Of a DNA stretch of 38,908 nt, positions 881 through 37,819 are shown piece after piece. Position 1 is the first letter of the stretch. Each line of letters starts with the position of its first letter. The translations under genes were made by a program, and so were the position numbers. Source of the DNA: Chiloscyllium plagiosum (lineage: Eukaryota). The notes under the pieces are model-generated. The model was not told where the DNA came from. It did no database searches and worked only from the letters and a program-made list of their open reading frames with translations. Location: NCBI RefSeq assembly GCF_004010195.1, contig NC_057718.1, positions 10,093,059-10,131,966 of the forward strand. The letters are read 5' to 3'.

Positions 881-1313
881 GATATGAACACTAATACTTT
901 CATATGTTAATCATTTACACGTACATATGCATAATTACACGCCTGAATATTGCTAGGAAAGAAAATTACATGGTGCCAGTTTTTTTTGTCTTGCTTTCAT
1001 CAGGACAGCATGGCAAGAATACCAAATCTCAAAGGGAATAACAATTTGTACTGCTTTCTGAAGTGGCTTGGCAAGTGGACTCTGATTGCTGGTACTGTTA
1101 CAATTCAGCACCCTCTTCTTATGCAATATAAATTGTTGTTCCTTTTGTGATTTGGTGTTCTTGCGTGCTGTCCTGATGAAAGCAAGGCAAGAAGCTTTGT
1201 CAGCAATATTCAAATTCTGTGCTGCACAGAATATGTACCTCCCTCTCCTTCGATATCTCCATTGACTCTCTTTGTCTAGTCTATCGCTTGTTCCCTGATA
1301 TTTTTTACTACGA

Positions 1314-1754: not shown

Positions 1755-3290
1755 TAGAAACAGAAAAGCTGCAGATGCTGGAATCCAAGGTAGACAAGCA
1801 GGAGGCTGGAAGAACACAGCAAGCCAGGCAGCATCAGGAGGTGGAGAAGTCAGCGTTTCTGGTGTAACCCTTCTTCAGGACTGGGGGTGGGTGTAAGGGG
1901 AGCTGCAGATAAAGGGGGTGGGAGGAGGCAGGGTGCTGATAGGTAAAGACAGGTAGAGGGTACAGCCTAGTTGGTCAATGGGAGGGATGAATCTAGTTGG
2001 TGGTTGGAAGGAAGGGTTGGTGAGAGGAATGGAAGGGAGGGGAAAAGGCTGAAAAGGAAGTCAGAGAAGGGAAGGGCGATTATTTGAAGTTGAAGAACTC
2101 AATGTTGTGTCCTCCGGGCTGTAGGCTGCCCAGGCGGAAGATGAGGTGTTGTTCCTCCAATTTGCGTTTTAGTTTGTTGTGTCAATGGAGGAAACCGAGG
2201 ATGGTCATTTCGGAAAGGGAATGGTTAGGGAAATTAAAATGGGGGGTGACTGGGAGGTCCGGTCAGCCCCTGCGGGCCCAGCTGCGATGTTCGGTGAACC
2301 GTTCCTTAAGTTTACATTCGGTCTCCCCGATGTAGAGAAGACCACATCGGGAGGACCTGATGCAGTAAACCAGGTTGAAGGAGAGGCAGGTGAACCTCTG
2401 TCTCACCTGGAAGGACTGTTTGGGGCCCAGGATGGTGGTGTACTGGCAGGTTTTTCATCTTTTTCGGTTGCATGGGGAAGGTACCTGGGGGTTTGGGGCG
2501 GGTTGGTGGGGAGCGTGACGCACACCAAGGACTGTTAGAGGCAATGGTCCTTGCGGAAGGCAGAGAGGGATGGGGAAGGGAAGGTGTACTTGGTGATGGG
2601 GGTCAGGTTGGAGTTGGCTGAAGTGTTTCAGGATGATGCGTTGAATGTGGAGGCTGGTGGGGTGGTAGGTGAACTCAAGGTGGACCTGTCTTTATTGCGT
2701 TTAGGCAGAAGGGTTAGAGCAATGGAACAGAGAGGAGTACTGTGTAGGGCTGTCTGTATGACGGAAGGGGGTAAAGCACTTTGTTCAAAATAGATGGACA
2801 TCTGGGATGCTTGGGAGTGGAATGTTTCCTCATCCGAGCAGATGTGGCAGAGGCGGAGGAATCGGGAGAACGGGATGGAATTCTTGCAAGATACTGGGTG
2901 GGAGGAGGTGTAGTCCAGGCAGTTGAGTCTGTGGGTTTATAGTAAATGTCTGTCTGGAGACTGTTGCTGAAACTGAAAATGGAGAGGTCAAGAAAGGGGA
3001 GGGAGGTGCCGAAGATGGAGCAAGTGAATTTGAGGACGGGGTGGAAGTTGTGGGCGAAGTCGATGAACTGCTCCAGTTCAGCCTGGGTGCAGGACGCTGC
3101 GCCGACGCAGTCATCGATGTAACAACGGAAGAGTTGGGACGTAGTGCCTGTACGGGTACTGAAGAGGGACTGTTTGACATAGCTGACAAAGAGACAGGCA
3201 CAGCTGGGGCCCAAGGCCACCCCCTGGACATGGAGGAAATGGGAAGAGTTAAAGGAAAAGTTACTAAGGGTGAGGACTAGTTTGGTGAGG
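1755..3290 (-). mobile_element. Penelope-like retroelement, 5'-truncated and frameshifted (RT, GIY-YIG endonuclease, terminal repeat)
   Basis: RT motifs ALGPSCACLF...FRCYIDDCVG...LPFLDL...TDIYYKPTDS (ORF 2714-3220). GIY-YIG region CGLLYIGETECKLKERFTEH (~2290-2345, -). C-terminus LEEQHLIFRLGSLQPGGHNIEF. The terminal region has a hammerhead-like CTGAAGA...GAAAC at ~1850-1880 (-). Confidence 0.88.
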
Positions 3291-3332
3291 CAGAGGGGGT
3301 CTGGATGGGTGTGTTGGAGAGGAGATTACAGC

Positions 3333-3522
3333 AAGTCAGGCAGTATCCAGGGAGAGAGAGCAAGCTAATGTTCTGAGTCTAGGTGACCCTTCATCAGAAC
3401 TCTGCTGAAGTGTAATCTATACTTGAAACGTTAGCTTGCTCTCTCTGTCTCCATGGATACTGCCTGACCCGCTGTGATCTCCAGCATTTTTTGCTGTCAG
3501 TACAGATTCCAGCATCTGCAGT
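3333..3522 (+). repeat. Palindromic Penelope-terminus-derived repeat with degenerate hammerhead cores
   Basis: Inverted arms gtcaggcagtatcc...gcaagctaatgtt / aacgttagcttgc...ggatactgcctgac. The centre is cttcatcagaactctgctgaag and the tail is ccagcatctgcagt. Confidence 0.7.
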
Positions 3523-3706
3523 GGTACAAGGATTTAGAGGGATATGGGCCAAATGCAGGCAAATGGGAATTAGTTTGTAATTATGGTCAGCGTGGTCAAG
3601 TTGGGCTGAAGGATCAGTATCCCTGCTGTTTGACTGTACCATTCTGTCTTTTCATCCTCAGTAATGTTGAAAACGAAGTTTTAAAGATTGCCTTTGCCGT
3701 CTTTAG

Positions 3707-4502
3707 GTCCAAGCGGAGAGTGCTGGGCAGGAAGGATTCTGAGGATGAGCTCAGTAAGAGTGTGCCACACTCACCCCCGGTCACCCCTACGGGCACGGCC
3801 TCCAGTCCGGGCACCATCAAGCAGGTTGGCTCCATCCAGAGGAACCTGCGCAGGTCCAGCACCAGCAGTGACAGCTTCAAGGCCTTGCTCCTGAAGAAGG
3901 GGAGCAGGGTGGAGACCGGATCCCGCATGTCGGCGGCTGAGATGTTGAGGAGCACCGACCCGAGGCACCGACCGCCCGAGTCACCGGCAACAACGGACAC
4001 AGCCCGCATGAACGGCTGGGGCCCGGCTGAGTCCCGCTCGCCGGGCCACCGGGCCAGGAACCCCCGCGAGGAGTGGGCCTCACACGAGGGGCCGGTACCC
4101 AAGGGGTCAGGGCACGCGGGAGTCCGTCATGGGCGTTCGCGCACACCCCCCTCGGCCCCCAGCAGCCGGTACGGCGCGCGGCACCTCCACCTGCACCGGC
4201 TCCACAGCAGCCCCATGACTGTCATCCGTGAAGGGGAGGTCGAGAGCCCGGAGGTCACCGAGGGTCATCGCCCTGGCGACGAGGGCCGCAGGCACAGCGA
4301 GGGAGACCTCCTCAGCACCAACGGCCTGGCGGATGCCCAGTGCAGCCAGGAGTCCAGAGACGACCACATCTCCAGCCACACGCGGCAGGGGGGCCCTGCC
4401 TCACAGAACCTTCTAGACTCGCTAAAGCGCAGGGCAGCAGACACTCTCCCTGCCCAAAGCGTTTTGGCAGAAGAAGGTGCAAACCAGGACTGGGACTCGT
4501 GA
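3707..4502 (+). CDS. NHSL1: NHS-like protein 1, last coding exon (upstream exons outside the window)
   Basis: Acceptor ctttag|G at 3705-3706. Reads SKRRVLGRKDS...SPPVTPTG...KQVGSIQR...STSSDSFKALLLKKGSR...RMSAAEML...EEWA...GRSRTPPSAPSSRY...SSPMTVIREGE, matching the NHSL1 C-terminus as I recall it. TGA at 4500-4502. The neighbour ARFGEF3 fits known synteny. Confidence 0.92.
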
Positions 4503-9950: not shown

Positions 9951-10574
9951 GCTGCTGAAGATATATCTGCCAGATTGACTCCAGGCCAGCCAGAGGAGTG
10001 GCCAATAGGCAGATAGGTCTTTTGAGTCCTTACCATTAGGAATGTGTGCCTTGCTGATTGGCAACATGTCTCAGGGTTGACAGGCAACATACAATCCCTG
10101 GTGTGATGATGCTCCTTTAACAAGGTTGTGTTGTCCTTGATTTTTTTTTCAAAATTGTTTTACCAGACCCAGGTTCTGAAATGTCAGGCTTGATCTCCTT
10201 AAAGAAGCTTTTAAGTTTTTTTTAAAAAAGTGGAGTGGCCAGTTCTCCCAGCTCAGCTTTTTTCTGGTTGGGTTTGGTTTGGTTTGGGTTTTAGCAGTCT
10301 GGCTGTTCAGAGAAGGCGATCAGTCAGTTTTTTTTTAGGCTGCTCATCAAAGAAACAGCTACATGGAAGAAGGTGTTCCATACTGAATCCCTCTGCCATC
10401 TCTCTCTCCTGTAAGACCTGTATTTGATTTTTCCTTTTTTGCCAAGGAGTGTTTACAGGGATCTTTGCAAGTGTTTGGAACAGCATCAAAGTTGGGATAA
10501 TCCGTTGAATTTTTGAATAGGTTGTTAATCTATATTCTGCTCTCTTCTGCTTGTATTTCATTCGGTAATCTTGC

Positions 10575-10818
10575 AAATAAATTCTGCTTTGTTTAAAACT
10601 AAGTGGTTGGGCCGGCTGCATCTCCCCTGGAATATCCACTCTACACCTGCTTAAAGCAATTAGCAAAGTTAGTCATAGAGATGTACAGCACAGAAACAGA
10701 TACTTCGGTCCGGGTGCAGAGAACTTTCTTGAAATGTTTTAAGCTGGTGTAGAGTGGATATTCCTGGAGTGATGTAACTGGCCCAGTCACTTAGCTTTAA
10801 ACAAAACAGAATTTATTT
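10575..10818. repeat. Inverted repeat with 81-bp arms (10575-10655 / 10738-10818) at the edge of an LTR-like repeat fragment
   Basis: Manual alignment of arm 2 with the reverse complement of arm 1 gives about 70/81 identities without gaps. Confidence 0.85.
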
Positions 10819-11888
10819 GGCTGCCAAGTTGCTGGGGCACGAAGCAGGAGGAGGTACAGAAAATAGAAACCTGAATCCAAGTACGAAATTTTGAGGGAGG
10901 CAGGGAGCCTCTACAGAGCATATCCAATGGAGAGTTCCATTCCCGGGGGCGATACAGATTGAAGCTGATTGGCCGAAGGATTAGAGGGCATGTGAGGAAA
11001 AGACTTTTCACCCAGAGGGGATGTGGGCATCACAAATCATCTGGTGTTCAAAGGGAAACTCCCCAACTCAATTAAAAGGAATCAGGATCTGCATCCTAAA
11101 ACAGTGTAACCCGCAAGGCTGCGGACCAGGAAGGTGGGATCAGAGCGGGCAGCTAGCTCTTTGATATAACCATGCACTCATGTTGGGCTGAACGGTCTTC
11201 TTCTTTGCCATAACTTTTCTATGGTTCTTAAACCAAAGGATGGGGCTCTTTTTGCATAGACACCATAAGACACAGGCACTGACAAATTGGCCGGTAATAA
11301 ACTGTGTGGTCACCATCTCCACTGGGTGAGGAGTAGAGAGTGGGATAGGTAAAAAGATTGGGATGAGTTACCACAGGAACAGGACAGCAATAGTTAGCCT
11401 CTCAGGCCTGTTCTGCTAGCCTGTTGCATTATGGCCGTTGTATCATTTCTCTGACTTATGTTGACTTCAGCTTTATGTTGATTGAGTAAACGAGACTTGA
11501 AAACAACGACAAACCCACTGAAGGGTTGGAGATCCGTGAGAATGCTATCCCATTAACAGGAAGGCCTTGGGGGGTGGGGCAGGAAGAGAAAAGAGGCTTT
11601 GGACAGCATATAATGTGGGTGAGACATTAATATTCCAGTTTTCCGGAATTTGTAAACAACATTTGCTGGACATACTCAGATCCAGGAGTGCTCTAACCTG
11701 CTGAATATTTCCAGCATTTTCTGTCTGTCAATACAGCCCTAAACCCCCTGGAGAAAGTGGTAGAGAACAATCTGAACTGCTGCACTCCATGGGGTGTTGG
11801 AACATGCATAGTGTCTGCTCACAGTTAGGGAGGGAGTTGCAGGATTTCCACCCAGCGATACTGAAGGAATGGAGATATATATCCAAGT

Positions 11889-12111
11889 TGAGAGTGTGGT
11901 GCTAGAAAAGCACAGAAGGTCAGGCAACATCTGTGGAGCAGGCAAATCGACATTTTGGACATAAGGCCTTCATCAGGATTCCTGATGAAGGGCTTATGCT
12001 CGAAACGTCGATTCTCCTGCTCTTTGGATGCTGCCTGACCTGCTGTGCCTTCCCAGCACCACACTCTCGACTCGGATTTCCAGCATCTGCAGTCCTCACT
12101 TTTTCCCTCCT
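11889..12111 (+). mobile_element. Palindromic Penelope-derived insert with hammerhead core and 15-bp TSD
   Basis: Inverted arms 11890-12068 are centred on tcaggattcctga. The core is CTGATGA(11982)-aGGGCttatGCTC-GAAAC-GTC(12007-12009). TSD gatatat(a/g)tccaagt at 11874-11888 and 12112-12126. Inserted in an older repeat. Confidence 0.85.
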
Positions 12112-12839
12112 GATATATGTCCAAGTCAGGATGGTGAGTGGCTTGGAGGGGAACTTGGCAGAAGGTGCTTGCTCCCATGTATTTGCTGCCCTTGTCCTTC
12201 AAGATGCGGTAAGTGTTTGCGGGTTAGGAAGGCACTGTCTAAGGATCTTTAGTGAACTTCTGCAATGCATCTTGTAGGTGGTACACACAGCTGCCACTGA
12301 GCATCGATGGTGAAAGGAGTGGATATTTAAAGGTGATGGATTGGGATCACGTGGGTTACTTGATCAAGATGGATAGCCAATGAAGATGACGAAAACTGGA
12401 GAGAGTTAGAGCATCCATTTTAAAGGTTAGGGAATAGAACTCCTGGGATTTCCATGCACAGTTCCTTTGCCCCTCTCCATTTCTCATTTATATAATTTCT
12501 TCACTTTGTTTCTATTTAATATACCTTCATCTATACATTCTACTTTTAAAAAATAATGATTCCTTTCTTTCCTGCCCTCTATTCAGTGTCGCCCAACTTG
12601 GAGGTGGGAGCTACATTGTGCACTTTTCGGTTCAGATTGTATGCCATGGGTATATGGGACAGAGAGCTCATGGCGCTGGACACTGTCAGTTCAATGTCAC
12701 ACCAGAATCTGATGAGGTTGCATCAGCCACAGGATCAGTGGTTCAGCCGACTCTGACAACAACTGGCATTGCAATAGTGCCGTTAATGTAGACTGTTCCA
12801 TGGTGACTGACAAAAGAGTGACCGACACACTGAGTCAAG

Positions 12840-13014
12840 ATATGGAGGTGCCGGTGTTGGACTGGGATGGACAAATTCAGAACTCACACGACACCAAGTT
12901 ATAATCCAACAGGTTTATTTAAAATCACACACCTGATGAAGGAGCAGCGCTCCGAAAGCTTGTGATTTTTAAATGAACCTGTTGGACTAGAGCTTGGTGT
13001 CATGTGACTTCGGG
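12840..13014 (-). mobile_element. Second family of palindromic Penelope-derived insert, with hammerhead core and 12-bp TSD
   Basis: Arms ~12883-13007. The + strand has CTGATGA(12933)-aGGAGCagcGCTCC-GAAAGCTT. TSD cactgagtcaag at 12828-12839 and 13015-13026. Confidence 0.8.
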
Positions 13015-13562
13015 CACTGAGTCAAGGAGGAGACACCAGGATAAGTATCCACATTATCACTGGGGCACTTCCAATCTATCTGTACTCATATGATATCTGC
13101 ATCCTGGCACAAGCTTTAGGACTTAGGGCTACAACTTAGTCTGCTCATTACTGATTAGACCAGAAATAATGGGGTTAGTTTGGAGGACAACTCATTAAAA
13201 CCAGCAAAGGCACTTTGGGCTGAATGGCCTCAACATTCCCCATTTGAATTGAGCAGATGTAAGTGAAATACTTCTTCCAAATTCTGCATTCAGAGTTCCT
13301 GTGGATAAAAGGTTCATTTCCAGCTTCAGAAATTAATCGCTCAAAGTTCTGAAACAAGAAACAGCTAACTTCATGAGGCCTGATGGGAACAGCAGTTAGC
13401 GTGGAATTCAACGCAACAATTCCATTGATATAGCAACTTTAAAATGGAGGAAGTGTCCCTGGATGCTATGTAATGCAAATTCTGCATCAACGTAACTGTT
13501 CAACTGCAGCCTAGGCTCTTTAATAACATCCAATTAACAAATGTTATCTTCACTGTGGTAAC

Positions 13563-13799
13563 GCTTAAAAATGTGTTGCTGGAAAAGCGCAGCAGGTCAG
13601 GCAGCATCAAAGGAGCAGGAGAATCGACGTTTCGAGCATGAGCCTTTCTTCAGGAATGAGGAATGAGGACACTCTCCTCATTCCTGAAGAAGGACTCATG
13701 CCCGAAACATCGAATCTCCTGCTCCTTGGATGCTGCCTGACCTGCTGCGCTTTTCCAGCAACACCTTTTTAAGCTCTGATCTGCAGTCCTCACTTTTTC
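13563..13799 (+). mobile_element. Palindromic Penelope-derived insert with two opposed hammerhead cores and 15-bp TSD
   Basis: Arms 13563-13774. CTGAAGA...GAAAC is present on both strands. TSD cttcactgtggtaac at 13548-13562 and 13800-13814. Confidence 0.88.
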
Positions 13800-14310
13800 C
13801 TTCACTGTGGTAACATCTGCCATAAGTTCACACTGTTTACTAAAAACGCTTCCAAAGCAGCAGCATCTATTAAGAGACAGTCACAAAAATGCAAATCAAA
13901 AAAGTGTAATTTCAAAGTGAGTCAGGGAGCAGAACAAGCTGGAAGTCAGGAGCACAGTGCGTGTGTGTTGCCATAGTCTTATCAGACCAGAAGGCTGCAT
14001 TCTTCTTTGAGAGAGAGAGAGAGACGACTAGTGGTGGTTTAACCTGAGGACCACCAATAGCTCAGGCGAGGGGAGGAGTTCAGAAGGAGAATCCTTCCTG
14101 GTCACTTCAGCTGGTGGCAGGAACTGAACCCACGCAGTTGGCGTCACACTACTTTGCAAACCAACCTTCCTGCCAAACGAGCTAAACCAGCACCACCCCC
14201 CCCCCCCCCCCATGGGAATGCAGTGACGTTCAGATAGATTTCAAGAAAAGGTTTCACAGGAAGAGTGACTAACTCTTGGAGCGGTCTTTCTAAGTCTAAA
14301 GGAAAAGGGA

Positions 14311-14511
14311 TGAAAATGTGTTGCTGGAAAAGCGCAGCAGGTCAGGCAGCATCCAAGGAACAGGAGAATCGACAGTTCGGGCATAAGCCCTTCTTCAGGA
14401 AGCCCGAAACGTCGATTCTCCTGTTCCTTGGATGCTGCCTGACCTGCTGCGCTTTTCCAGCAACCCATTTTCAGCTCCGATCTCCAGCATCTGCAGTCCT
14501 CACTTTCTCCT
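14311..14511 (+). mobile_element. Palindromic Penelope-derived insert with central deletion and 14-bp TSD
   Basis: Arms 14311-14473, tail ctccagcatctgcagtcctcactttctcc. TSD taaaggaaaaggga at 14297-14310 and 14512-14525. Confidence 0.88.
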
Positions 14512-15349
14512 TAAAGGAAAAGGGAACTTTGTTAATGAAACATGAGACTGAGACGTAGTGCAGGAGGGGGCACTGACCAATATCTGCCCATCCGCCCACC
14601 CTCTCAACATTTGACCTTTCACCCAAGGTGTTTAGGTGGGTGAACGGAGGTGGATCCAAATGGTTGCCCTTGTTGATCTACCCATTCTGCAGTCCAGCCC
14701 AGTCAGTGCCAGGTTGGTGATGATGCTTCTTTTAGCAGGAACGATACCCCCTTCCTCACAGATAAAACTACAGGGTCACAGTACCACACAGTTCAAAGCC
14801 CTAGACCCCACTGCCCTTGACCCTGGCCAATTTCCAGCTTTGCTCTGTCCCTGGCCCCAGATTTATGTTCGGATCTGCTTATGATCACACTGGTGTCTCC
14901 CAGCAGAGTCCGGCCTTTAACTAGCCTGGAGCTCCCTCGCAGTTGGGCCTCACTCGTGTTGGACTGCAGTGACCCTCCACCTTCCATAAAACCATAAGAC
15001 ACAGGAGGAGAGGCGGGCCATTCAGCCATTGAGTCTGCTCCATCCTTCAAAGCTCGGACTCTTCAAATCCTTCCAGCTCCAACGCAAGGCCTTCCTGGAT
15101 CCCAAGAGGCTATCTCAGAGAGAGGGAGCAGGAGAGAGCACAACCCCCACTGACAGGTTGGGGTTCAAGGAGCAAGCCCATTGGCCACAGATGTATCCCA
15201 GAAACATTTGGATCTTGGAGGGTAACATAAGAAAAATATTTTCTCAGTCAGGGTTGGAAAAGTAGGTCATTTTCTCACAGGCTAACCCTTGTGCTTCATA
15301 AATATAGATTTGTTTTCTCTTAGTGTTGATGCCTTTTTCTCTTTCATTT

Positions 15350-17442: not shown

Positions 17443-17565
17443 TAGACATACATACATATACATGGAGTATGCACAACCCTCTGGGGTATAGAATTCTAAA
17501 CATTCACCACCCTTCAAGTGAAGTAATTCCTCCTCATCTCAATCCTAAATGATTCGCCCTTTAAT

Positions 17566-18110
17566 AGAAATTGCTGGAAAAGCTCAGCGCCTGTGGAGAG
17601 AAATCGGAGTTCACATATCGGGTTGAATGACCCTTCCTCTGATCTGAAGTAAATTGGGTGAATAAGGTATATCAAAATCCAACGCAATTTTATCAGGCTC
17701 AAACCCCCTGCATAAAGTATCAGCTAACTTGCCACAATTTATATTAAATGAGACCATGAAAATAAGCAAAATATTATATTAAATGAGACCATGAAAATAA
17801 GCAAAATAAATATGTCTTACATGGCACTGTCTTATGAAATTTACGTGTGCACCCACTAGAGCTTAGAAGGATGAGAGGAGATCTAATTGAGGTATATAAG
17901 ATGTTAAAGGGAATTGACAAAGTTAATGTAGAGAGAGTGTTTCCTCATGGGGACATCTAGAATGAATGGACATAGTTTTAGGATAAGGGGTAGCAGATTT
18001 AAAACAGACATTAGTAGGAATTACTTCTTTCAAAGGGTTATGAATCTGTGGAATTCACTATCCCAGAGGGTAGTGGACATTGGGGCATTGAATAAGTTTA
18101 AGATGAGATC
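17566..18110 (+). repeat. Direct duplicate, copy 1 (partner 22558-23067), with an internal 35-bp tandem duplication at 17739-17808
   Basis: Near-identical to 22558-23067. It comprises a Penelope terminus, a non-repetitive-looking AT-rich spacer and a CR1 fragment. Confidence 0.92.
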
Positions 18111-21120: not shown

Positions 21121-22557
21121 CCGTGTACATTCTGTTAGTGTGTTTAGTTCAACCTTCAGCTTTCATTTTTCGAGACAGGAAGCCCAACCTCCAGGTAGTA
21201 TTATCCCTGTAAATCTTCCTATTTTTCCCTCTCCAGTATCACTTTTATAAAACAGCAACTAGAATTGTTCACAGTCCTCCAAGTATGGTCTGATCAAGGT
21301 CTGATACATGTTTACTGCAACTTCAATGCGCTCTCCTCAGAAATAAACCCTTGCACTTGTTTTGATTGGGTTTTTTTTTAGTAAGGCTTTGTTAACTGGA
21401 GAATCGAATGAGTGAGGTGGAAGAGTATGGAGTTATCTTTAACGTAATCTGCCCACTAAGAAAGTGATGGGAGAGGGTACAACTGGTTTTACACGTTAAT
21501 GGTACATGCCATTGAAGGCAATGGTGGAGTGGGTAATGAGACCAAGAAGCTCCCTACACCCACCCAGTGAGTTATTTTCACAGTGCCCCCTGAAGCTGGG
21601 ACAGAATGAGGGAGAAAAGCCCAGTACATTCTGTAATGGCCGCCACTGACAGGAAGGGTTACAGGAACAAAGAGAGCAAGTTTGTAATCGATCCAAGATG
21701 GTGGTGCAGCAGGATGCTTCAGCCAGAGCCCGTCTGCTCCATCCATTTTGTTTTCTTTATTTTTCTCTTTTCTTGTTTGTGTTTTTTTTTCTCTTATCTC
21801 TCTTTTATCTCAGAGAAGATGTCCTGAGCTTTGGCCTTAGCACAGACCCAGCCTGATGGTGATCTCCCAGCCTGGTGTAGCGGTCTCCTGCCCCCTGTAG
21901 TGATCTTTGTGCCCAGCGTTATAGTCCTGGCCCATAGTGAAGCCCTGAACATTCTGGAGTCAAGGCACGGCATGGGCTGGACGCTCAATGTCAGCTTGGA
22001 CTGGATTGGAAGGACTGGTGTGTGGACTTCTTATTTCCCCATTTTCTAAGCTACTGCTGCGCTCTGCAATGCTGGACTTCTTATTTCTTTATCTTTTTTT
22101 CCCTAAGAACTTGTACTGTAGAATCTGTACCTATTGCTTGACCTTATACCTTAGATGGTGTTGTAAGTGCTGACTTGCAAGCCTTTCACTGTACTCACCT
22201 GAATATGTAACAGTAAAGCTAATTCAACCCCCCAGTTGTGCATAAGCGCTTGTTACAGACTGCACCACTGCCAGCCCATGAGCAACTGTTCCTGATGCTG
22301 GTGGCAGGATGAAATTTTCCTACATCTGAATTACTAGAGAAGGAAATGTGGACTTTAACGACTTGTTTGCATCTGTGTTTGATTATGCTAGTCTGATCAC
22401 CGATCCTTCTTTATTGCTTGACTGAGGAACTAGTGAGTCAGATGTTATCTTTACTCCACAAAGGATCCTTCAAAGATATACATATAAGTTCTAAGATGTT
22501 TAAATTTGTGTGAGTAAACTGCTTAAGTTTAGAACTACGGTTATCTTTGTCAAAAAC

Positions 22558-23067
22558 AGAAATTGCTGGAAAAGCTCAGCGTCTGTGGAGAGAAATCGGA
22601 GTTCACATATCGGGTTGAATGACCCTTCCTCTGATCTGAAGTAAATTGGGTGAATAAGGTATATCAAAATCCAACGCAATTTTATCAGGCTCAAACCCCC
22701 TGCATAAAGTATCAGCTAACTTGCCACAATTTATATTAAATGAGACCATGAAAATAAGCAAAATAAATATGTCTTACATGGCACTGTCTTATGAAGTTTA
22801 CGCGTGCACCCACTAGAGCTTAGAAGGATGAGAGGAGATCTAATTGAGGTATATAAGATGTTAAAGGGGATTGACAAAGTTAATGTAGAGAGAGTGTTTC
22901 CTTGTGGGGACATCTAGAATGAATGGACATAGTTTTAGGATAAGGGGTAGCAGATTTAAAACAGAGATTAGTGGGAATTACTTCTTTCAAAGGGTTATGA
23001 ATCTGTGGAATTCACTATCCCAGAGGGTAGTGGACATTGGGGCATTGAATAAGTTTAAGATGAGATC
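22558..23067 (+). repeat. Direct duplicate, copy 2 (partner 17566-18110)
   Basis: See copy 1. The copies differ by roughly eight substitutions plus the 35-bp indel. Confidence 0.92.
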
Positions 23068-23352: not shown

Positions 23353-23557
23353 ACAATTATGGTATAACATAATACAAGAGGAGCTTTCGAAAGGGAACTG
23401 GATAAGGTCTCGAAGGAGGAAGAGGTGATTTGGAGAAAGAGCAGAAGGAGTAGGGCCTATACTTCGAGACAACCTGTACAGACCAGCTGGGCTGAATGGC
23501 CTGTTCCCGTACTGCTTGGGACGTCCTGTGAAATGCAACATTCGGAGAGGAACTTAC

Positions 23558-24779
23558 CTGCATCTGGGCCTCGGTGTCGCGCACAGAGACGCTGTGGGAG
23601 CTGACAGTGGATCCGGAGCGAGGTCGTTTTTCCAGTCGGAGCAGCTCGGGGCCTGCGCTTAGCGAATGCCTCATCTGGCCCTGGTCCAGCAGCTGCTGGG
23701 GCCTCTGGAGAGGGGAATCCGGGCATCTCCCCAATGCCACCTCCCCCTTCTCTACCTTCCCCTCCTTGACTAACGTGGCCAGGTTATGCTGCTGCAGCTG
23801 CTGCTGCTGTTTGCGCTTCTTGTATTCAAAGACGAGCTTGTTGATGGTTTTGTCAGTTGCAATGGTGTAGATCTTGTTGCCAGCGCTCTCCCACCACTCC
23901 TTCTTCCGGCCTTGCTCCTTCTTCTCCATGTTGGGGCTCAAGGGAGCGCTGCTGGGCCCTTTCAGTTTCCCTTCCTCCAGCTCTTTCACGTGGTACCTGG
24001 TGCCATCTTCTGAAGGGGTATCTTTGCCTGACATGCCGCCAGTGGACGGGGTGGATCCTTCGGAGTAGCAGGAGGGCAGAAAGAAGAGGGGGTCACCCCT
24101 CAGCGCTGGGGGCTCCTCTGCCAAGCACTCCAGGTCAAGGTGCATCTGGATGTAGTTGTTACAGAGCTCCAGGCACACCTTGTGCAGTCTCTTCACCAAC
24201 CAGACCCAGTCCACGTTGCTAATCGGCTGAATGCTGAGAGAAGGCACCCTCGCTCGCCACTGCCTCTTCTCCTTTCCCCTCGGTGGGCTGACCTGGGCCG
24301 TCTCCTCAAAGATGTCCTCATCCTCCGAGGAGCACTGCTGGGAAGAATCCGAGCTCAGCTCCTCCTCCTCATACAGGATCTTCTTGACCTGCTCGGCCGT
24401 TATGTTCTCCTGGTTGGTCATAATGGCGGATACCAAAGCCTGGAAGTAAATGTTGAAGCTCATGGCTGACTGGCGGTAGAGGTTGGCAGCCCCTCCCACT
24501 CCCGAGACTTTCATCAGTAGGTACTTCAGGCCAGGCCTCGTGTCGAACTCCCTGGCCGTTCGGTAAGAGTCCAGCAGCAGGTCAAATATGACAGCCAGGT
24601 TCTGCATGGAGATGTACCTCAGGAAGCTGGCCGGCCTGGTCTCTCCAAAGTTAACGGTTCGGTCTGAGGCCTCGCTCGGTGTAGGGCCTTTGACAAACTC
24701 TTCGAGCAGGACGTCATAGAGGTTTTGAAGTAACACTTGATGGGACAGCAAACTCACCACTATTGTCCGGAATGGGATT
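23558..24779 (-). CDS. ARFGEF3: ARFGEF3 penultimate large coding exon (1222 nt)
   Basis: Acceptor ttttgatccacag|A, donor CAG|gtaagt. Encodes IPFRTIVVSLLSHQVLLQNLYDVLLEEF...DIFEETAQVSPPRGKEKRQWRAR...KKEWWESAGNKIYT...RPRSGST...SVRDTEAQMQ. Phases fit the flanking exons. Confidence 0.96.
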
Positions 24780-25874
24780 CTGTGGATCAAAAGAGAAAGG
24801 TTTAGACAGCTGGACACACAGAGTAATGAATACAAGAGACAGTATGAGTTTTGTTTCATAGTCAACCTTTATTGCTAATTGTACCTTGAGAAGGTGGCAG
24901 TGAACTGCCCCCATTTACCACTGCAGTCCTTTGGTTGTGGGTATGCCACCAGTACCATTAGGGAGGGAGTTCCAAGGCTTTGATCCAGTGACACTGGAGG
25001 AATGGATATATTTCCAACGAATGGCTTGGACGGAACTTTCAGGCAGTATCTGCTACCCTTGTCCTTCTAGATGGTTGAGATGGGGGACTGGTCTGTGTGT
25101 GCGAATGCACATTCAAGTCCATTTGCATGAGTGTGTGTGTGACTGCATATTTGAGTGTGGGCGCAGTCTGTTTAAGGCTGTGTGTTTGGCAGTGTTAAAT
25201 TTTTTTTTTACACAAGTGCTTGTGAGTTGTGTGTTAGCGAGTCCACAGATGTGCATGTAATAGTTGTGTGTTTGTGAGACTGCGTGTTTGTGTGTGCTTG
25301 ACAGTTTGTGAGGACTGAAGGTAGACCTTCTGAGAAGATGATGCTGATGCCAATTTTAAGAGGAAGGGAGATAGTACATGAGGGGAGTGAACAATTTCAG
25401 AAGCAGTTAGCACAGAGACCGGGAAATGAGCAATGGGCTTCAATATTTAAACAACTAAATGCAAAATATCATGTAAGAGGACTGCTTCTGAGAGAATCAG
25501 TGATTATATTGTTGGTATTACTGCATCGGTTAAGCACTCTGAACGTGTTAAAATGTTAAAGGTGCTATGTAAATGAACATTGTTGGTATATGGCATATCA
25601 TTGGGCTGATGGGATAACTCTCTCAGAGGTTCACTGTCCCTCCTATCCTGTGGACACACATGCAGTCAGCACTGAAATAAACCTTGCATTTATATAGCAC
25701 TATTGATAGCAACTGGACATTAACATGCCTGTGGCCTCAACGGTATTCCAGCTGAGGCCTACAAAGATACTGGATTTTCGTCGGATTCAGGCACTCATCA
25801 AGAACTCCCCCTTTCCCCAGTCCACGTCAGAAATGAAACTCTCTTGTGCTGTGGAATGTATTAAGGATTTTTCC

Positions 25875-27130
25875 TCTTAATTATAGCAGGGAAAATCCTG
25901 ACCTGCATTCTTCTGAACCTGGTCTGTTCCTGTGGGAGAGGAAATGCTGCCAGTGACCTTCCAGGGGAATTTCCAACATAGTCTTTGCTGTCAATCCAAG
26001 AAAGATGTGAAGAACAACATTTGGAACTGTTCATTATGTTCATCAATGTGACCAAAGCATTTGAGTAAATTACCAGGCTATATGCATTGTTCTAGAGTGA
26101 TTTGAATATCTAAGAAACTTCTTCAAATTCCTGTAACTGCAGCTTGATGGTCGTATTGCAAGTGGGCATTCTGAAACAAATGCTTTCAATATCTGACTGA
26201 TGTCAGGCAAACGTGTGTGATCAGCTCCCTTAATAATTACAGTCAACGTATCAGTGATTATTCACCTCATCAAAGATCAACTATCCTCTGGCGTGACTGT
26301 TAAGTACCACCTTTAGCCTATGTCACCTCCATGCCAATACTAAATTGTCCACTATTGACATACATAATCAACAGCGTACAGGTGACTGCAGTGTCATTAA
26401 CACTTAGTCAAAAAAGTGTGGTGCTGGAAAAGCACAGCAGGTCAAGCAGCACCGAAGGGCTGGAGAATCGACATTTTGGGCATGAGCCCTTCAGATTCCT
26501 GATGAAGGGCTTACGCCTGAAACACGACTCTCCTCCTTGGATACTGCCTGACCTGCTGTGCTTTTCCAGCACCCCACTTTTTTGACTCTGACTCTCCAGC
26601 ATCTGCAGTCCTCACTTTTTCCATTAACACTTTGTACCAAGTTTGTAAAGCCCCTCTCGATCCCTTTAATTGTGCGTCTGAAGTATTTGGTTCAGTCCTT
26701 GGATGTTGCCAAAACAAAACTAATTTTAAACCAGGCCTGGTCACTCAAATAGTCCATCTTCTGCGTATGTTGAAGGAGGGAGTCTGGCATATGTTGAGCT
26801 TTTCCCACACCTTGGTAGCCGCCCGTATCAAAAGGCCATCGGTGATGAGGAGATCCGGCAATGGATGGGTTTTGCCAGCTCGATGTTCTATAGGTTACAG
26901 GTGTGACTTATTTACAACAAGGTCCACCATATACAGCAATATACAGAGCAATATTCAGCACTACAGTCCTGTACTACAGTGAGATCTGGAATATGACAGA
27001 GAGTATTGGAGAAAGTCCGCCAGCAATGTGTACACGGCATTCTCCAGATTCATTAGGACAACTACTAAACAAATGCTAAGGTCCTTCTTGAAGCCAGCTT
27101 CACAAACGTTCTGGCAAAACTGCTGTAAAA
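25875..27130 (+). mobile_element. Highly degenerate RTE-clade LINE RT fragment, split by the palindromic insert at 26406
   Basis: Recognisable remnants IAGKILTCILLN (~25882) and IQERCEEQHLELFIMFINVTKAF (~25994), plus a VRQ.CVI-like motif (~26200). Confidence 0.55.
26406..26621 (+). mobile_element. Palindromic Penelope-derived insert with degenerate hammerhead core and 11-bp TSD
   Basis: Arms 26406-26587. CTGATGA(26499)-aGGGCttacGCCT-GAAAC. TSD cattaacactt at 26395-26405 and 26622-26632. Confidence 0.87.
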
Positions 27131-30936: not shown

Positions 30937-31104
30937 CTGGAGGAGAAGATTTCAGTCTGATTATAATAAAACAATGAACCACTGGAAAACTGAAACAAGA
31001 ACAGAAAATGCTGGAGAAACTCAGCGGGTCAGGCAGCATCTGTGGACAGAAGGCAGAGTTAACATTTCAAGTCCAGCCACCCTTCTTCAGATGCTGTTAC
31101 AGTC

Positions 31105-35941: not shown

Positions 35942-37368
35942 GCAAGAGAATAGGGCCCCTCAAAGATCAGCAAAGCGACCTTTGTGTGGAGCCACAGAAA
36001 ATGGGAGAGATACTAAATGAATATTTTGCGTCAGTATTTACTGTGGAAAAGGATATGGAAGATATAGACTGTAGGGAAATAGATGGTGACATCTTGCAAA
36101 ATGTTCAGATTACAGAGGAGGAAGTGCTGGATGTCTTGAAATGGTTAAAGGTGGATAAATCCCCAGGACCTGATCAGGTATACCCGAGAACTCTGTGGGA
36201 AGCTAGAGAAGTGATTGCTGGGCCTCTTGCTGAGATATTTGTATCATCGATAGTCACAGNNNNNNNNNNNNNNNNNNNNNNNNNNNNNNNNNNNNNNNNN
36301 NNNNNNNNNNNNNNNNNNNNNNNNNNNNNNNNNNNNNNNNNNNNNNNNNNNNNNNNNNNNNNNNNNNNNNNNNNNNNNNNNNNNNNNNNNNNNNNNNNNN
36401 NNNNNNNNNNNNNNNNNNNNNNNNNNNNNNNNNNNNNNNNNNNNNNNNNNNNNNNNNNNNNNNNNNNNNNNNNNNNNNNNNNNNNNNNNNNNNNNNNNNN
36501 NNNNNNNNNNNNNNNNNNNNNNNNNNNNNNNNNNNNNNNNNNNNNNNNNNNNNNNNNNNNNNNNNNNNNNNNNNNNNNNNNNNNNNNNNNNNNNNNNNNN
36601 NNNNNNNNNNNNNNNNNNNNNNNNNNNNNNNNNNNNNNNNNNNNNNNNNNNNNNNNNNNNNNNNNNNNNNNNNNNNNNNNNNNNNNNNNNNNNNNNNNNN
36701 NNNNNNNNNNNNNNNNNNNNNNNNNNNNNNNNNNNNNNNNNNNNNNNNNNNNNNNNNNNNNNNNNNNNNNNNNNNNNNNNNNNNNNNNNNNNNNNNNNNN
36801 NNNNNNNNNNNNNNNNNNNNNNNNNNNNNNNNNNNNNNNNNNNNNNNNNNNNNNNNNNNNNNNNNNNNNNNNNNNNNNNNNNNNNNNNNNNNNNNNNNNN
36901 NNNNNNNNNNNNNNNNNNNNNNNNNNNNNNNNNNNNNNNNNNNNNNNNNNNNNNNNNNNNNNNNNNNNNNNNNNNNNNNNNNNNNNNNNNNNNNNNNNNN
37001 NNNNNNNNNNNNNNNNNNNNNNNNNNNNNNNNNNNNNNNNNNNNNNNNNNNNNNNNNNNNNNNNNNNNNNNNNNNNNNNNNNNNNNNNNNNNNNNNNNNN
37101 NNNNNNNNNNNNNNNNNNNNNNNNAGGGGCAACCTTTTAACGCAGAGGGTGGTACGTGTATGGAATGAGCTGCCAGAGGAAGTGGTGGAGGCTGGTACAA
37201 TTGCAACATTTAAGAGGCATTGGATAGGAATATGAATAGGAAGGGTTTGGAGGGATATGAGCCAGGTGCTGGTAGGTGGGACTAGATTAGTTCGGGATAT
37301 CTGGTCGGCATGGACAGGTTAGACCAAAGAATCTGTTTCCATGCTGTACATCTCTATGAGTCTATGAC
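35942..37368 (+). mobile_element. CR1 LINE ORF2 fragment(s) spanning an assembly gap (36260-37124)
   Basis: RIGPLKDQ...EILNEYFASVFT...KSPGPDQVYPRTLWEAREVIAGPLAEIF. After the gap come QRVVRVWNELP and the tail tctctatgagtctatga. Confidence 0.9.
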
Positions 37369-37819
37369 ATGTTCCCCAATAAGCCACTCACCATCCTTAC
37401 TTGGAAATATATCACTGTTCCCTCAGTGTCACTGGGTCAAAATCCTGGAATTCCCTCTGTACAACAGGTGGACTGCAACTGTTCAAGAAGGCAGCTCACC
37501 ACCACCTCCATCTTAAGGGCAACTAAGGACAGGCAATAAAGGCTTGCCTAGACAGCAATGCCCACATTCCATGATCCAATAAATTAAATAAAAATTGAAA
37601 AAATAAGAAATTAATAAAAATGTTTTGGACAGGAGGACAGAGGATATATAGTATCAGGCCATTCAGCCCAACTAGTCCATGCACATCCTTACACTCCACT
37701 CAAGCCTCCTGCCATCTTTACTCATCTCACTCTATTCTAATGCATAGCCAGTTTCTTCTGAACTGCATCTACAGTGTTGATGCAGTTTTTAGCATTTAGA
37801 TTTTACTGTCACATGGATC

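What the first reader, a model, noticed from the sequence alone, without database searches (positions are those of the whole stretch)
11874..14525. Family of ~200-bp palindromic inserts with back-to-back hammerhead ribozyme cores and 11-15 bp TSDs
Seen: copies at 11889, 13563, 14311 and 26406 share one design. Each has an ~80-105 bp inverted repeat whose centre carries CTGA(T/A)GA-stem II-GAAAC-GTC motifs, complete or decayed, on opposite strands. Each has a one-sided tail ((ccagcat)ctgcagtcctcacttt) and a copy-specific flanking direct repeat (15, 15, 14 and 11 bp). The tail and core resemble the end of the Penelope element at 1755-1880. Established: Penelope-like elements carry minimal hammerhead motifs with a very short palindromic stem III that can act as dimers, and they often insert with an inverted terminal repeat. 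Inference: the palindrome-plus-tail unit integrates as one event, either as a recurrent extreme truncation plus inversion or as a non-autonomous retrozyme-like element with ribozyme cores in both polarities.
Basis: partly seen in the sequence, partly recalled or inferred. Interest (0 to 1): 0.7.

Follow-up and report, generated by a model that had tools for sequence, protein, structure and literature searches.

The report
Hairpin-shaped Penelope retroelement stubs
These short mirror-image inserts are real but largely ordinary: each is the ribozyme-bearing end piece of a Penelope-like jumping gene laid down twice, head to head, in one insertion, rather than a new self-cleaving RNA element.

Summary
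Observation confirmed. Four 201-237 bp palindromes with a one-sided 25-42 bp tail are flanked by 15 (1 mismatch), 15, 14 and 11 bp duplications. Single-event insertion is supported: a contig of a related organism lacks copy 3 and holds one copy of its duplication, and a paralogue of copy 1's host repeat holds the 15-mer once. The arms are the end module (minimal hammerhead to tail) of a Neptune-like Penelope element. All four centres differ, and at six columns a copy's two arms agree with each other and differ from other copies, so the mirror arm is most likely built anew at each insertion. The retrozyme reading fails: cores are head to head, 1 of 8 is intact, 0 of 8 arms begin at the cut site, and the full hairpin abolishes stem II in folding. 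Inverted repeat, tail, TSD and opposite-strand hammerhead pairs are published Penelope features. Inferred, untested mechanism: both target nicks prime short cDNAs from the two known initiation sites. This scan has noted the same thing repeatedly in other windows of this genome. New member of a known kind; interest low.

The parts
11874..11888 (+). c1 left target-site duplication (15 bp)
   Evidence: occurs once in a paralogue of the host repeat at 37399-37413
11889..11978 (-). c1 left (inverted) arm, tail-less; hammerhead core decayed at GAAAC
11978..12069 (+). c1 right arm
11978..12013 (+). the only complete minimal type I hammerhead: CTGATGA 11982-11988, extra A, 4-bp stem II, GAAAC-GTC, predicted cut after 12009; stem I short with one mismatch
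   Evidence: read from sequence against the description in PMC4209133; cleavage not tested
12070..12111 (+). c1 tail (42 nt)
12112..12126 (+). c1 right target-site duplication (1 mismatch)
13548..13562 (+). c2 left target-site duplication (15 bp)
13563..13661 (-). c2 left arm; core motifs present but first stem II pair mismatched
13662..13675 (.). c2 junction insert: 7-nt repeat of the left arm's end plus 7 nt seen in no other window copy
13676..13774 (+). c2 right arm; stem II and stem III mismatches
13775..13799 (+). c2 tail (25 nt, internally shortened)
13800..13814 (+). c2 right target-site duplication
14297..14310 (+). c3 left target-site duplication (14 bp)
   Evidence: single copy at the empty site in run X18 record 23
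14311..14401 (-). c3 left arm; GAAAC changed
14402..14473 (+). c3 right arm, begins inside stem II, no CTGANGA
14474..14511 (+). c3 tail (38 nt)
14512..14525 (+). c3 right target-site duplication
26395..26405 (+). c4 left target-site duplication (11 bp)
26406..26494 (-). c4 left arm; core incomplete
26495..26587 (+). c4 right arm; cut-site triplet lost
26588..26621 (+). c4 tail (34 nt)
26622..26632 (+). c4 right target-site duplication
1757..3320 (-). decayed, 5'-truncated Penelope-like element (RT, cysteine-motif linker, GIY-YIG) of a sister family; its 3' end 1757-1883 carries the same hammerhead-arm-tail module
37365..37457 (-). paralogue of the repeat into which c1 inserted; an empty site with one copy of the 15-mer

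Best explanation
The four inserts are minimal insertions of an endonuclease-bearing Penelope-like element (PLE), probably Neptune clade: the standard 'inverted pseudo-LTR + pseudo-LTR + tail + TSD' unit with nothing left but the last ~90-130 nt. SHOWN: each is one insertion at a staggered 11-15 nt cut; the arms are a PLE end module; outer ends are nearly fixed (left arms end at +88 to about +92 counted from the C of CTGA, tails 25-42 nt further) while centres are copy-specific. STRONGLY INFERRED: the mirror arm is made at each insertion from the same source as the tailed arm, and the ribozymes are passengers. INFERRED, about even odds: the RT-endonuclease nicks both target strands, each 3' end primes a short cDNA, one from the inner and one from the outer initiation site (hence a tail on one side only); both run through the uncleaved hammerhead to near the RNA's 5' end, and their free ends are joined head to head with little or no homology. 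Odds: PLE end module 0.95; rebuilt per insertion 0.8; two-nick priming as the route 0.5. The confidence given covers the first two.
For: Empty site of c3: run X18 record 23 covers 14009-14296 with its letters 11-291 and 14512-14800 with letters 292-575. Empty paralogous site of c1 in the window and 809 X1 contigs that enter at 12111 from host-repeat sequence. Junctions (left arm/right arm start): c1 -2/-4 with 1 shared base; c2 -8/-8 with 14 nt between; c3 -3/+17; c4 +5 (or +1 with a 3-nt slip)/-4. At 6 alignment columns both arms of every copy agree while copies differ, giving 4 haplotypes in 4 copies. 0 of 8 arms begin at the cut site (+28); all reach further 5'. The module also exists without the mirror arm: 1299 X1, 203 X18 contigs and 454 X21 reads carry other sequence before 11978 (agreement 0.34-0.43), and a sister module ends an RT + GIY-YIG element at 1757-3320. 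Three other hammerhead-bearing PLE-type families form palindromes in this window (983-1193, 3321-3482, 12880-13011). PMC11167929: a purified PLE protein cuts and extends both strands, starts at two sites whose interval is the tail, and needs no hammerhead cleavage.
Against: Only four copies could be read whole; no genome is held. All 4 of 4 window copies of this family are palindromic, and 6 of 8 arm starts fall between -8 and +5, tighter than random truncation. Centres of long hairpins can be deleted after insertion, and arm-to-arm gene conversion could also make arms agree. c1 and c4 left arms share two changes (both at CpG sites) and both right arms start at -4, weakly as a master palindrome would predict. 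The variant-centre joints mostly have sides of 22-26 letters, which the tool flags as unreliable, and 1688 joints were not shown. The direct parent was not found; the window PLE is only 73-76% alike. The in vitro data are from a Poseidon element, not a Neptune one, and did not show joining.
Confidence: 0.75

Rival explanations
1. Same identity, different last step: one nick primes one cDNA, which folds back and copies itself (self-priming, as proposed for rotifer PLEs), or switches template, to give the mirror arm.
For: Arms agree within a copy, including a variant seen only in c3. PMC3846280 reads junction palindromes as self-priming. c1, c2 and c4 are nearly symmetrical.
Against: In c3, the youngest copy (3 of 72 arm differences; absent from organism C), the tail-less arm reaches 19 nt further 5' than the tailed arm, which a fold-back from the tailed cDNA cannot copy unless a later deletion is added. 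The junctions show 0-1 nt of homology. Fold-back does not by itself explain why the copied arm stops at +88 to +92.
Confidence: 0.25
2. A discrete non-autonomous family: a palindromic master RNA (retrozyme-like, cores in both polarities) is copied whole by PLE proteins; centres changed afterwards.
For: 4 of 4 window copies are palindromic with similar size (201-237 bp); very high abundance (200,053 of 21,185,600 X1 contigs laid on the 3.2-kb stretch, all repeats in it together); PLEs do mobilise non-coding passengers (PMC3846280, PMC8557442, bioRxiv 2026.07.22.740005).
Against: Four different centres; variants shared within copies rather than by arm; 1 of 8 cores intact; stem II probability 0.000 in whole c1 against 0.52-0.55 in the arm alone; no head-to-tail repeat; same design in three other families of the window.
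Confidence: 0.1
3. The template is a short non-coding single-arm RNA (a SINE-like PLE derivative starting just before the hammerhead) rather than a full-length PLE transcript. This is compatible with the best explanation and changes only the donor.
For: Arm starts cluster just 5' of the core; loose ends before 11978 share only a few letters next to the arm; no ORF-bearing parent closer than about 75% was found.
Against: The loose-end consensus in X1 is C-rich like the region upstream of the window PLE's hammerhead, as expected if longer copies exist; the parent search was limited to the window and one protein search.
Confidence: 0.25
4. A MITE (non-autonomous DNA transposon) with long terminal inverted repeats.
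For: Short, palindromic, non-coding, flanked by duplications.
Against: The inverted repeat is not terminal on the right (25-42 nt tail); duplications vary from 11 to 15 bp; arms are homologous to the end of an RT + GIY-YIG element.
Confidence: 0.02

Closest known systems
Insertion unit of EN+ Penelope-like elements: inverted pLTR, tail, TSD (PMC3846280 passages; PMC8557442 passages; PMC8969392 passages)
   Same: Inverted 5'-truncated copy head to head with the main copy, 30-40 bp tail on one end, TSD around the whole unit, strong 5' truncation.
   Different: No ORF remnant at all: both copies are about 70-130 nt. TSDs are 11-15 bp against 8-10 bp in the rotifer examples.
Minimal hammerheads (min-HHR) of metazoan PLEs (PMC4209133, parts 1-2 of 4 read)
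   Same: CTGANGA, extra base before stem II, G-C first pair, palindromic 15.2-16.2, short stem I; that paper already reports dual motifs on opposite strands about 100-700 bp apart and most motifs as truncated PLE ends.
   Different: Here the opposite cores are 0-30 bp apart; stem II is 4 bp; activity untested. Cartilaginous fishes are not named in the parts read.
PAc (Poseidon of Anolis) in vitro mechanism (PMC11167929, parts 1-2 of 4 read)
   Same: Two fixed 3' ends a tail apart; hammerhead cut site not used as an end; both target strands can be primed.
   Different: The related window element has the Neptune/Nematis-type cysteine linker; no open frame starting at stem II is evident in the stubs; that paper does not account for inverted pairs.
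Non-LTR retrozymes (bioRxiv 10.64898/2026.07.22.740005, parts 1-3 of 5 read)
   Same: Non-coding, type I hammerhead, derived from PLE pLTRs, present in a chondrichthyan.
   Different: Retrozymes are head-to-tail tandems with a complete motif in at least two consecutive units; these are head-to-head pairs with mostly broken cores.

Membership tests
EN+ Penelope-like element insertion | Sequence is the terminal repeat of an element encoding RT plus C-terminal GIY-YIG | tested here: met
   73-76% identity to 1769-1886, which ends a decayed ORF matching P0001 at E 3e-50 to 9e-24; P0001 has RVT_1 and GIY-YIG hits. The window fragments themselves gave no Pfam hit. Sister family, not the direct parent.
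EN+ Penelope-like element insertion | 30-40 bp tail on one end | tested here: met
   42, 25 (shortened), 38, 34 nt, right side only, 4 of 4
EN+ Penelope-like element insertion | Inverted 5'-truncated copy adjoining the 5' end | tested here: met
   4 of 4
EN+ Penelope-like element insertion | Target-site duplication made on insertion | tested here: met
   Empty sites with one copy for c3 and c1; c2 and c4 by direct repeat only
Neptune clade | CX2-5CxxC motif between RT and EN (shared with Nematis; PMC8557442) | tested here: inconclusive
   Complete in homologue P0001; the decayed window copy keeps two of the three cysteines. No RT tree was built.
Minimal type I hammerhead | CUGANGA, stem II, GAAA, NUH, stem I | tested here: met
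   Complete in 1 of 8 arms, damaged in 7
Minimal type I hammerhead | Self-cleavage (as dimer or protein-assisted) | not testable with these tools
   Bench assay needed
Non-LTR retrozyme | Head-to-tail tandem with complete hammerhead in two or more consecutive units | tested here: not met
   Head to head; no copy with two complete cores
Non-LTR retrozyme | Abundant monomer or circular RNA with ends at the cut site | tested here: inconclusive
   No pile-up of ends in X21 (table 6), but a poly(A) single-cell library sampled at 2% would not show it
LTR retrozyme | Direct LTRs with type III hammerhead, 4-bp TSD | tested here: not met
   Inverted arms, type I motif, 11-15 bp TSD
Discrete non-autonomous family (single master) | Fixed centre and arm-specific variants shared among copies | tested here: not met
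   4 centres in 4 copies; variants track within copies; n = 4 only
MITE | Inverted repeats at both termini and fixed-length TSD | tested here: not met
   One-sided tail; TSD 11-15 bp

The most novel reading that the evidence does not exclude
The palindromes are the genomic record of a general, so far unexplained PLE step: both strands of the staggered cut prime reverse transcription, one at each of the two internal start sites, each yields a short 'strong-stop-like' cDNA ending at the RNA's 5' end just ahead of the hammerhead, and failure to jump templates leaves the two joined head to head. This one model would explain the inverted pLTR, the one-sided tail and the TSD together, and the probably 10^5-scale copies in this genome would map the RNA start and the joining chemistry at base resolution.
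Probability: 0.4. Interest if true: 0.5.

Novelty: new member of a known kind. Interest (0 to 1): 0.25.

Why it matters
As an object it is ordinary: a compact case of published PLE architecture in a cartilaginous-fish-like genome. Its use is as a test bed. How PLEs form inverted repeats and tails is called undefined in PMC8557442, and PMC11167929 leaves the steps after initiation unvalidated. Very many short, datable (arm-to-arm divergence 4-22%) insertions with clean junctions would let two-nick priming be tested against fold-back by counting alone. Practical side: such stubs mimic MITEs and microRNA hairpins in annotation (Rfam gave only sub-threshold miRNA matches), inflate hammerhead counts, and would give about 90-bp double-stranded RNA when read through.

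Tried and rejected
Genome-wide census: no genome is held. Pattern scans: 0 matches in viral contigs and metagenomes for the tail; a second motif gave 21 metagenome and 9 genome loci, but the best alignments over all 30 were 23-41 nt around the motif (top 30 rows seen), so chance matches, not used. Rfam: 11 matches, none at gathering score, none a hammerhead. Pfam on two window RT fragments: 0 families; the window GIY-YIG segment was not scanned directly, and its assignment rests on homologue P0001. One protein search gave 6 hits, none full length with an N-terminus that could be linked to the arms, so the parent was not identified. No RNA holder listed. In RNA run X21, 6572 records were laid, 98% running on into other sequence, 111 at 99% or more identity, with zero depth on the unique bins 12349-12776 and 13098-13525: family reads come from elsewhere and expression of these copies is not shown; no end pile-ups, uninformative for this library type. 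The joint 14511->11978 (46 X1, 4 X18 contigs; intervening length unknown) was considered as a sign of head-to-tail dimers and set aside, since neighbouring independent copies could give it. AT content of the four TSDs (0.73, 0.53, 0.64, 0.73 against 0.55) is too small a sample to show a preference. No TSD was found for the four other palindromes. Supplements 1 and 2 of PMC11167929 gave only figure letters; bioRxiv supplements were not seen and may list chondrichthyan families. Paper searches at (0 papers) showed no paper on ORF-free head-to-head PLE stubs in cartilaginous fishes, judged from listings; the library lacks most subscription papers and Repbase, so this does not show novelty.
Full report
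Observation. The four copies are real and at the stated places: c1 11889-12111, c2 13563-13799, c3 14311-14511, c4 26406-26621. Each is a long inverted repeat (82-96% complementary for c1-c3) followed on the right only by a tail of 42, 25, 38 and 34 nt. Flanking direct repeats are 15 bp with one mismatch, 15, 14 and 11 bp exact; an exact repeat of 11 or more turned up at 1 of 2756 random positions searched the same way. The elements fold at -124 to -186 kcal/mol against shuffle means of -54 to -67.

Source of the arms. Arms and tail are 73-76% identical to 1769-1886, the 3' end of a decayed minus-strand element at about 1757-3320. Its frames align with proteins from cartilaginous fishes (59-62% identity for the top 4 of 6 hits; tblastn), one of which carries RVT_1 and GIY-YIG domains and a CX2-5CxxC linker, the mark of Neptune and Nematis elements (PMC8557442, passages). 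So the arms are a Penelope-like end module, of a sister family of the window element; the direct parent was not found and no tree was built.

One insertion event. With no genome held, I laid four public runs on 11600-14800. In X18 (organism C, about 5% different on unique sequence) record 23 covers 14009-14296 with its letters 11-291 and 14512-14800 with letters 292-575: c3 and one copy of its duplication are absent. This is one contig of one run. c3 also has the most alike arms (3 of 72 differences; c2 6 of 75, c4 14 of 72, c1 16 of 72). Pieces of X18 enter c1 and c2 by 27-29 letters, just under the tool's 31-letter bar, so their presence there is suggested only. c1 sits in another repeat, whose paralogue at 37457-37365 holds the 15-mer once; 809 X1 contigs enter at 12111 from that repeat's sequence.

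Family or recurring product. Counting the C of CTGA as +1, left arms end outward at +88, +91, +88 and about +92, but the centres differ: left/right starts are -2/-4 with one shared base (c1), -8/-8 with 14 nt between (c2), -3/+17 (c3), +5 or +1/-4 (c4). At six alignment columns the two arms of each copy agree while copies differ, four haplotypes in four copies; a master palindrome copied whole should instead pass on arm-specific variants. Against this, c1 and c4 left arms share two changes, both at CpG sites, hairpin centres can be deleted later, gene conversion can homogenise arms, and n is 4. The module also occurs without the mirror arm: 1299 X1 contigs, 203 X18 contigs and 454 X21 reads have unrelated sequence before 11978 (agreement 0.34-0.43; X1 counts incomplete; contigs may break at hairpins, so no ratio can be taken). 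Joints with other centres are listed too, but most have short sides and are weak. Three other hammerhead-bearing families form palindromes in the window (983-1193, 3321-3482, 12880-13011), so the design is not peculiar to this family. Abundance is high: summed depth of 1.1-2.4 million in bins on c1-c3 against about 9-22 in most unique bins of X1, which the tool says is no copy number; 4 copies in 36.8 kb of read sequence points the same way.

Ribozyme. The motif fits the minimal type I hammerhead of metazoan PLEs (PMC4209133, parts 1-2 of 4). Only c1's right arm is complete; c2's arms have stem mismatches; c1 left, c3 left and both c4 arms have broken core elements; c3 right lacks the first half. 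Rfam found no hammerhead. In either direction a transcript meets the antisense arm first; stem II probability is 0.52-0.55 in c1's right arm alone and 0.000 in the whole element. A cis dimer needs two sense cores, which a head-to-head pair cannot supply. None of 8 arms starts at the cut site (+28); all extend further 5', so the template was uncleaved there. RNA data were uninformative on cleavage and do not show these loci expressed.

Mechanism. PMC11167929 (parts 1-2 of 4) shows that a Poseidon protein cuts and extends both target strands, starts at two internal sites whose interval is the tail, and does not need hammerhead cleavage. I infer that each target nick primes a short cDNA, one from each site, both run to about the hammerhead's 5' edge, perhaps the RNA's start, and are joined head to head; the stagger gives the TSD. 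This fits all four junctions. Fold-back self-priming (PMC3846280, passages) fits c1, c2 and c4 but needs an extra deletion for c3. Neither is shown. The likeness to retroviral strong-stop DNA and L1 twin priming is from my own knowledge.

Comparison and novelty. Inverted pLTR, tail and 8-10 bp TSD are described for rotifer PLEs; an adjoining inverted truncated copy and a one-sided tail are called typical; dual minimal hammerheads on opposite strands were reported in 2014. Retrozymes are head-to-tail (bioRxiv 2026.07.22.740005, parts 1-3 of 5), a test these fail. Searches listed no paper on such ORF-free stubs in cartilaginous fishes, in a library that lacks many sources. Earlier notes of this scan on other windows of the same genome reach the same reading (102 notes fit the look-up, 8 shown); they are unchecked AI notes and not counted as support. 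Verdict: real, new member of a known kind, interest 0.25; the open value is the junction census as a test of how PLEs build inverted repeats.

Noticed in passing
window 12880-13011: Palindrome of another PLE-type family with one hammerhead core. In RNA run X21, 800 family reads run into poly(A) behind 12989 and 301 diverge behind 12964 with an AATAAA-bearing sequence: transcripts of this family seem to be polyadenylated about 30 nt after the hammerhead.
   Followed up: partly
window 3321-3522: Palindrome plus tail of a further family directly abutting the truncated 5' end of the minus-strand PLE; no TSD found. Separate insertion or composite event unresolved.
   Followed up: partly
window 983-1193: Head-to-head pair with hammerhead-like cores near the outer ends and a long, partly unpaired centre: a longer-armed version of the same design in another family.
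   Followed up: partly
window 10574-10819: Inverted repeat of about 88-bp arms without a recognisable hammerhead, with a fragment of another repeat in its centre. Origin not determined.
   Followed up: no
window 30982-31090, 17561-17639, 22549-22631, 11691-11724: Solo or fragmentary PLE-type end modules of other families (profile search).
   Followed up: no
window 17563-18073 and 22555-23030: About 510 bp present twice at 98-99% identity, 5 kb apart, the first next to a run of N: recent duplication or assembly artefact.
   Followed up: no
window 23357-24868 (-): Long open frame with a BIG2 C-terminal domain hit, an exon of a host gene; c4 lies 1.5 kb upstream on that strand, probably intronic. 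Another likely coding exon at about 3700-4500 (+) was not scanned.
   Followed up: no
joints 14511->11978 and 14511->14479: 46 X1 contigs continue from a tail end to another arm start (distance unknown), and 12 repeat the last 33 nt of the tail: possible head-to-tail or tail-duplicated forms elsewhere in the genome.
   Followed up: no
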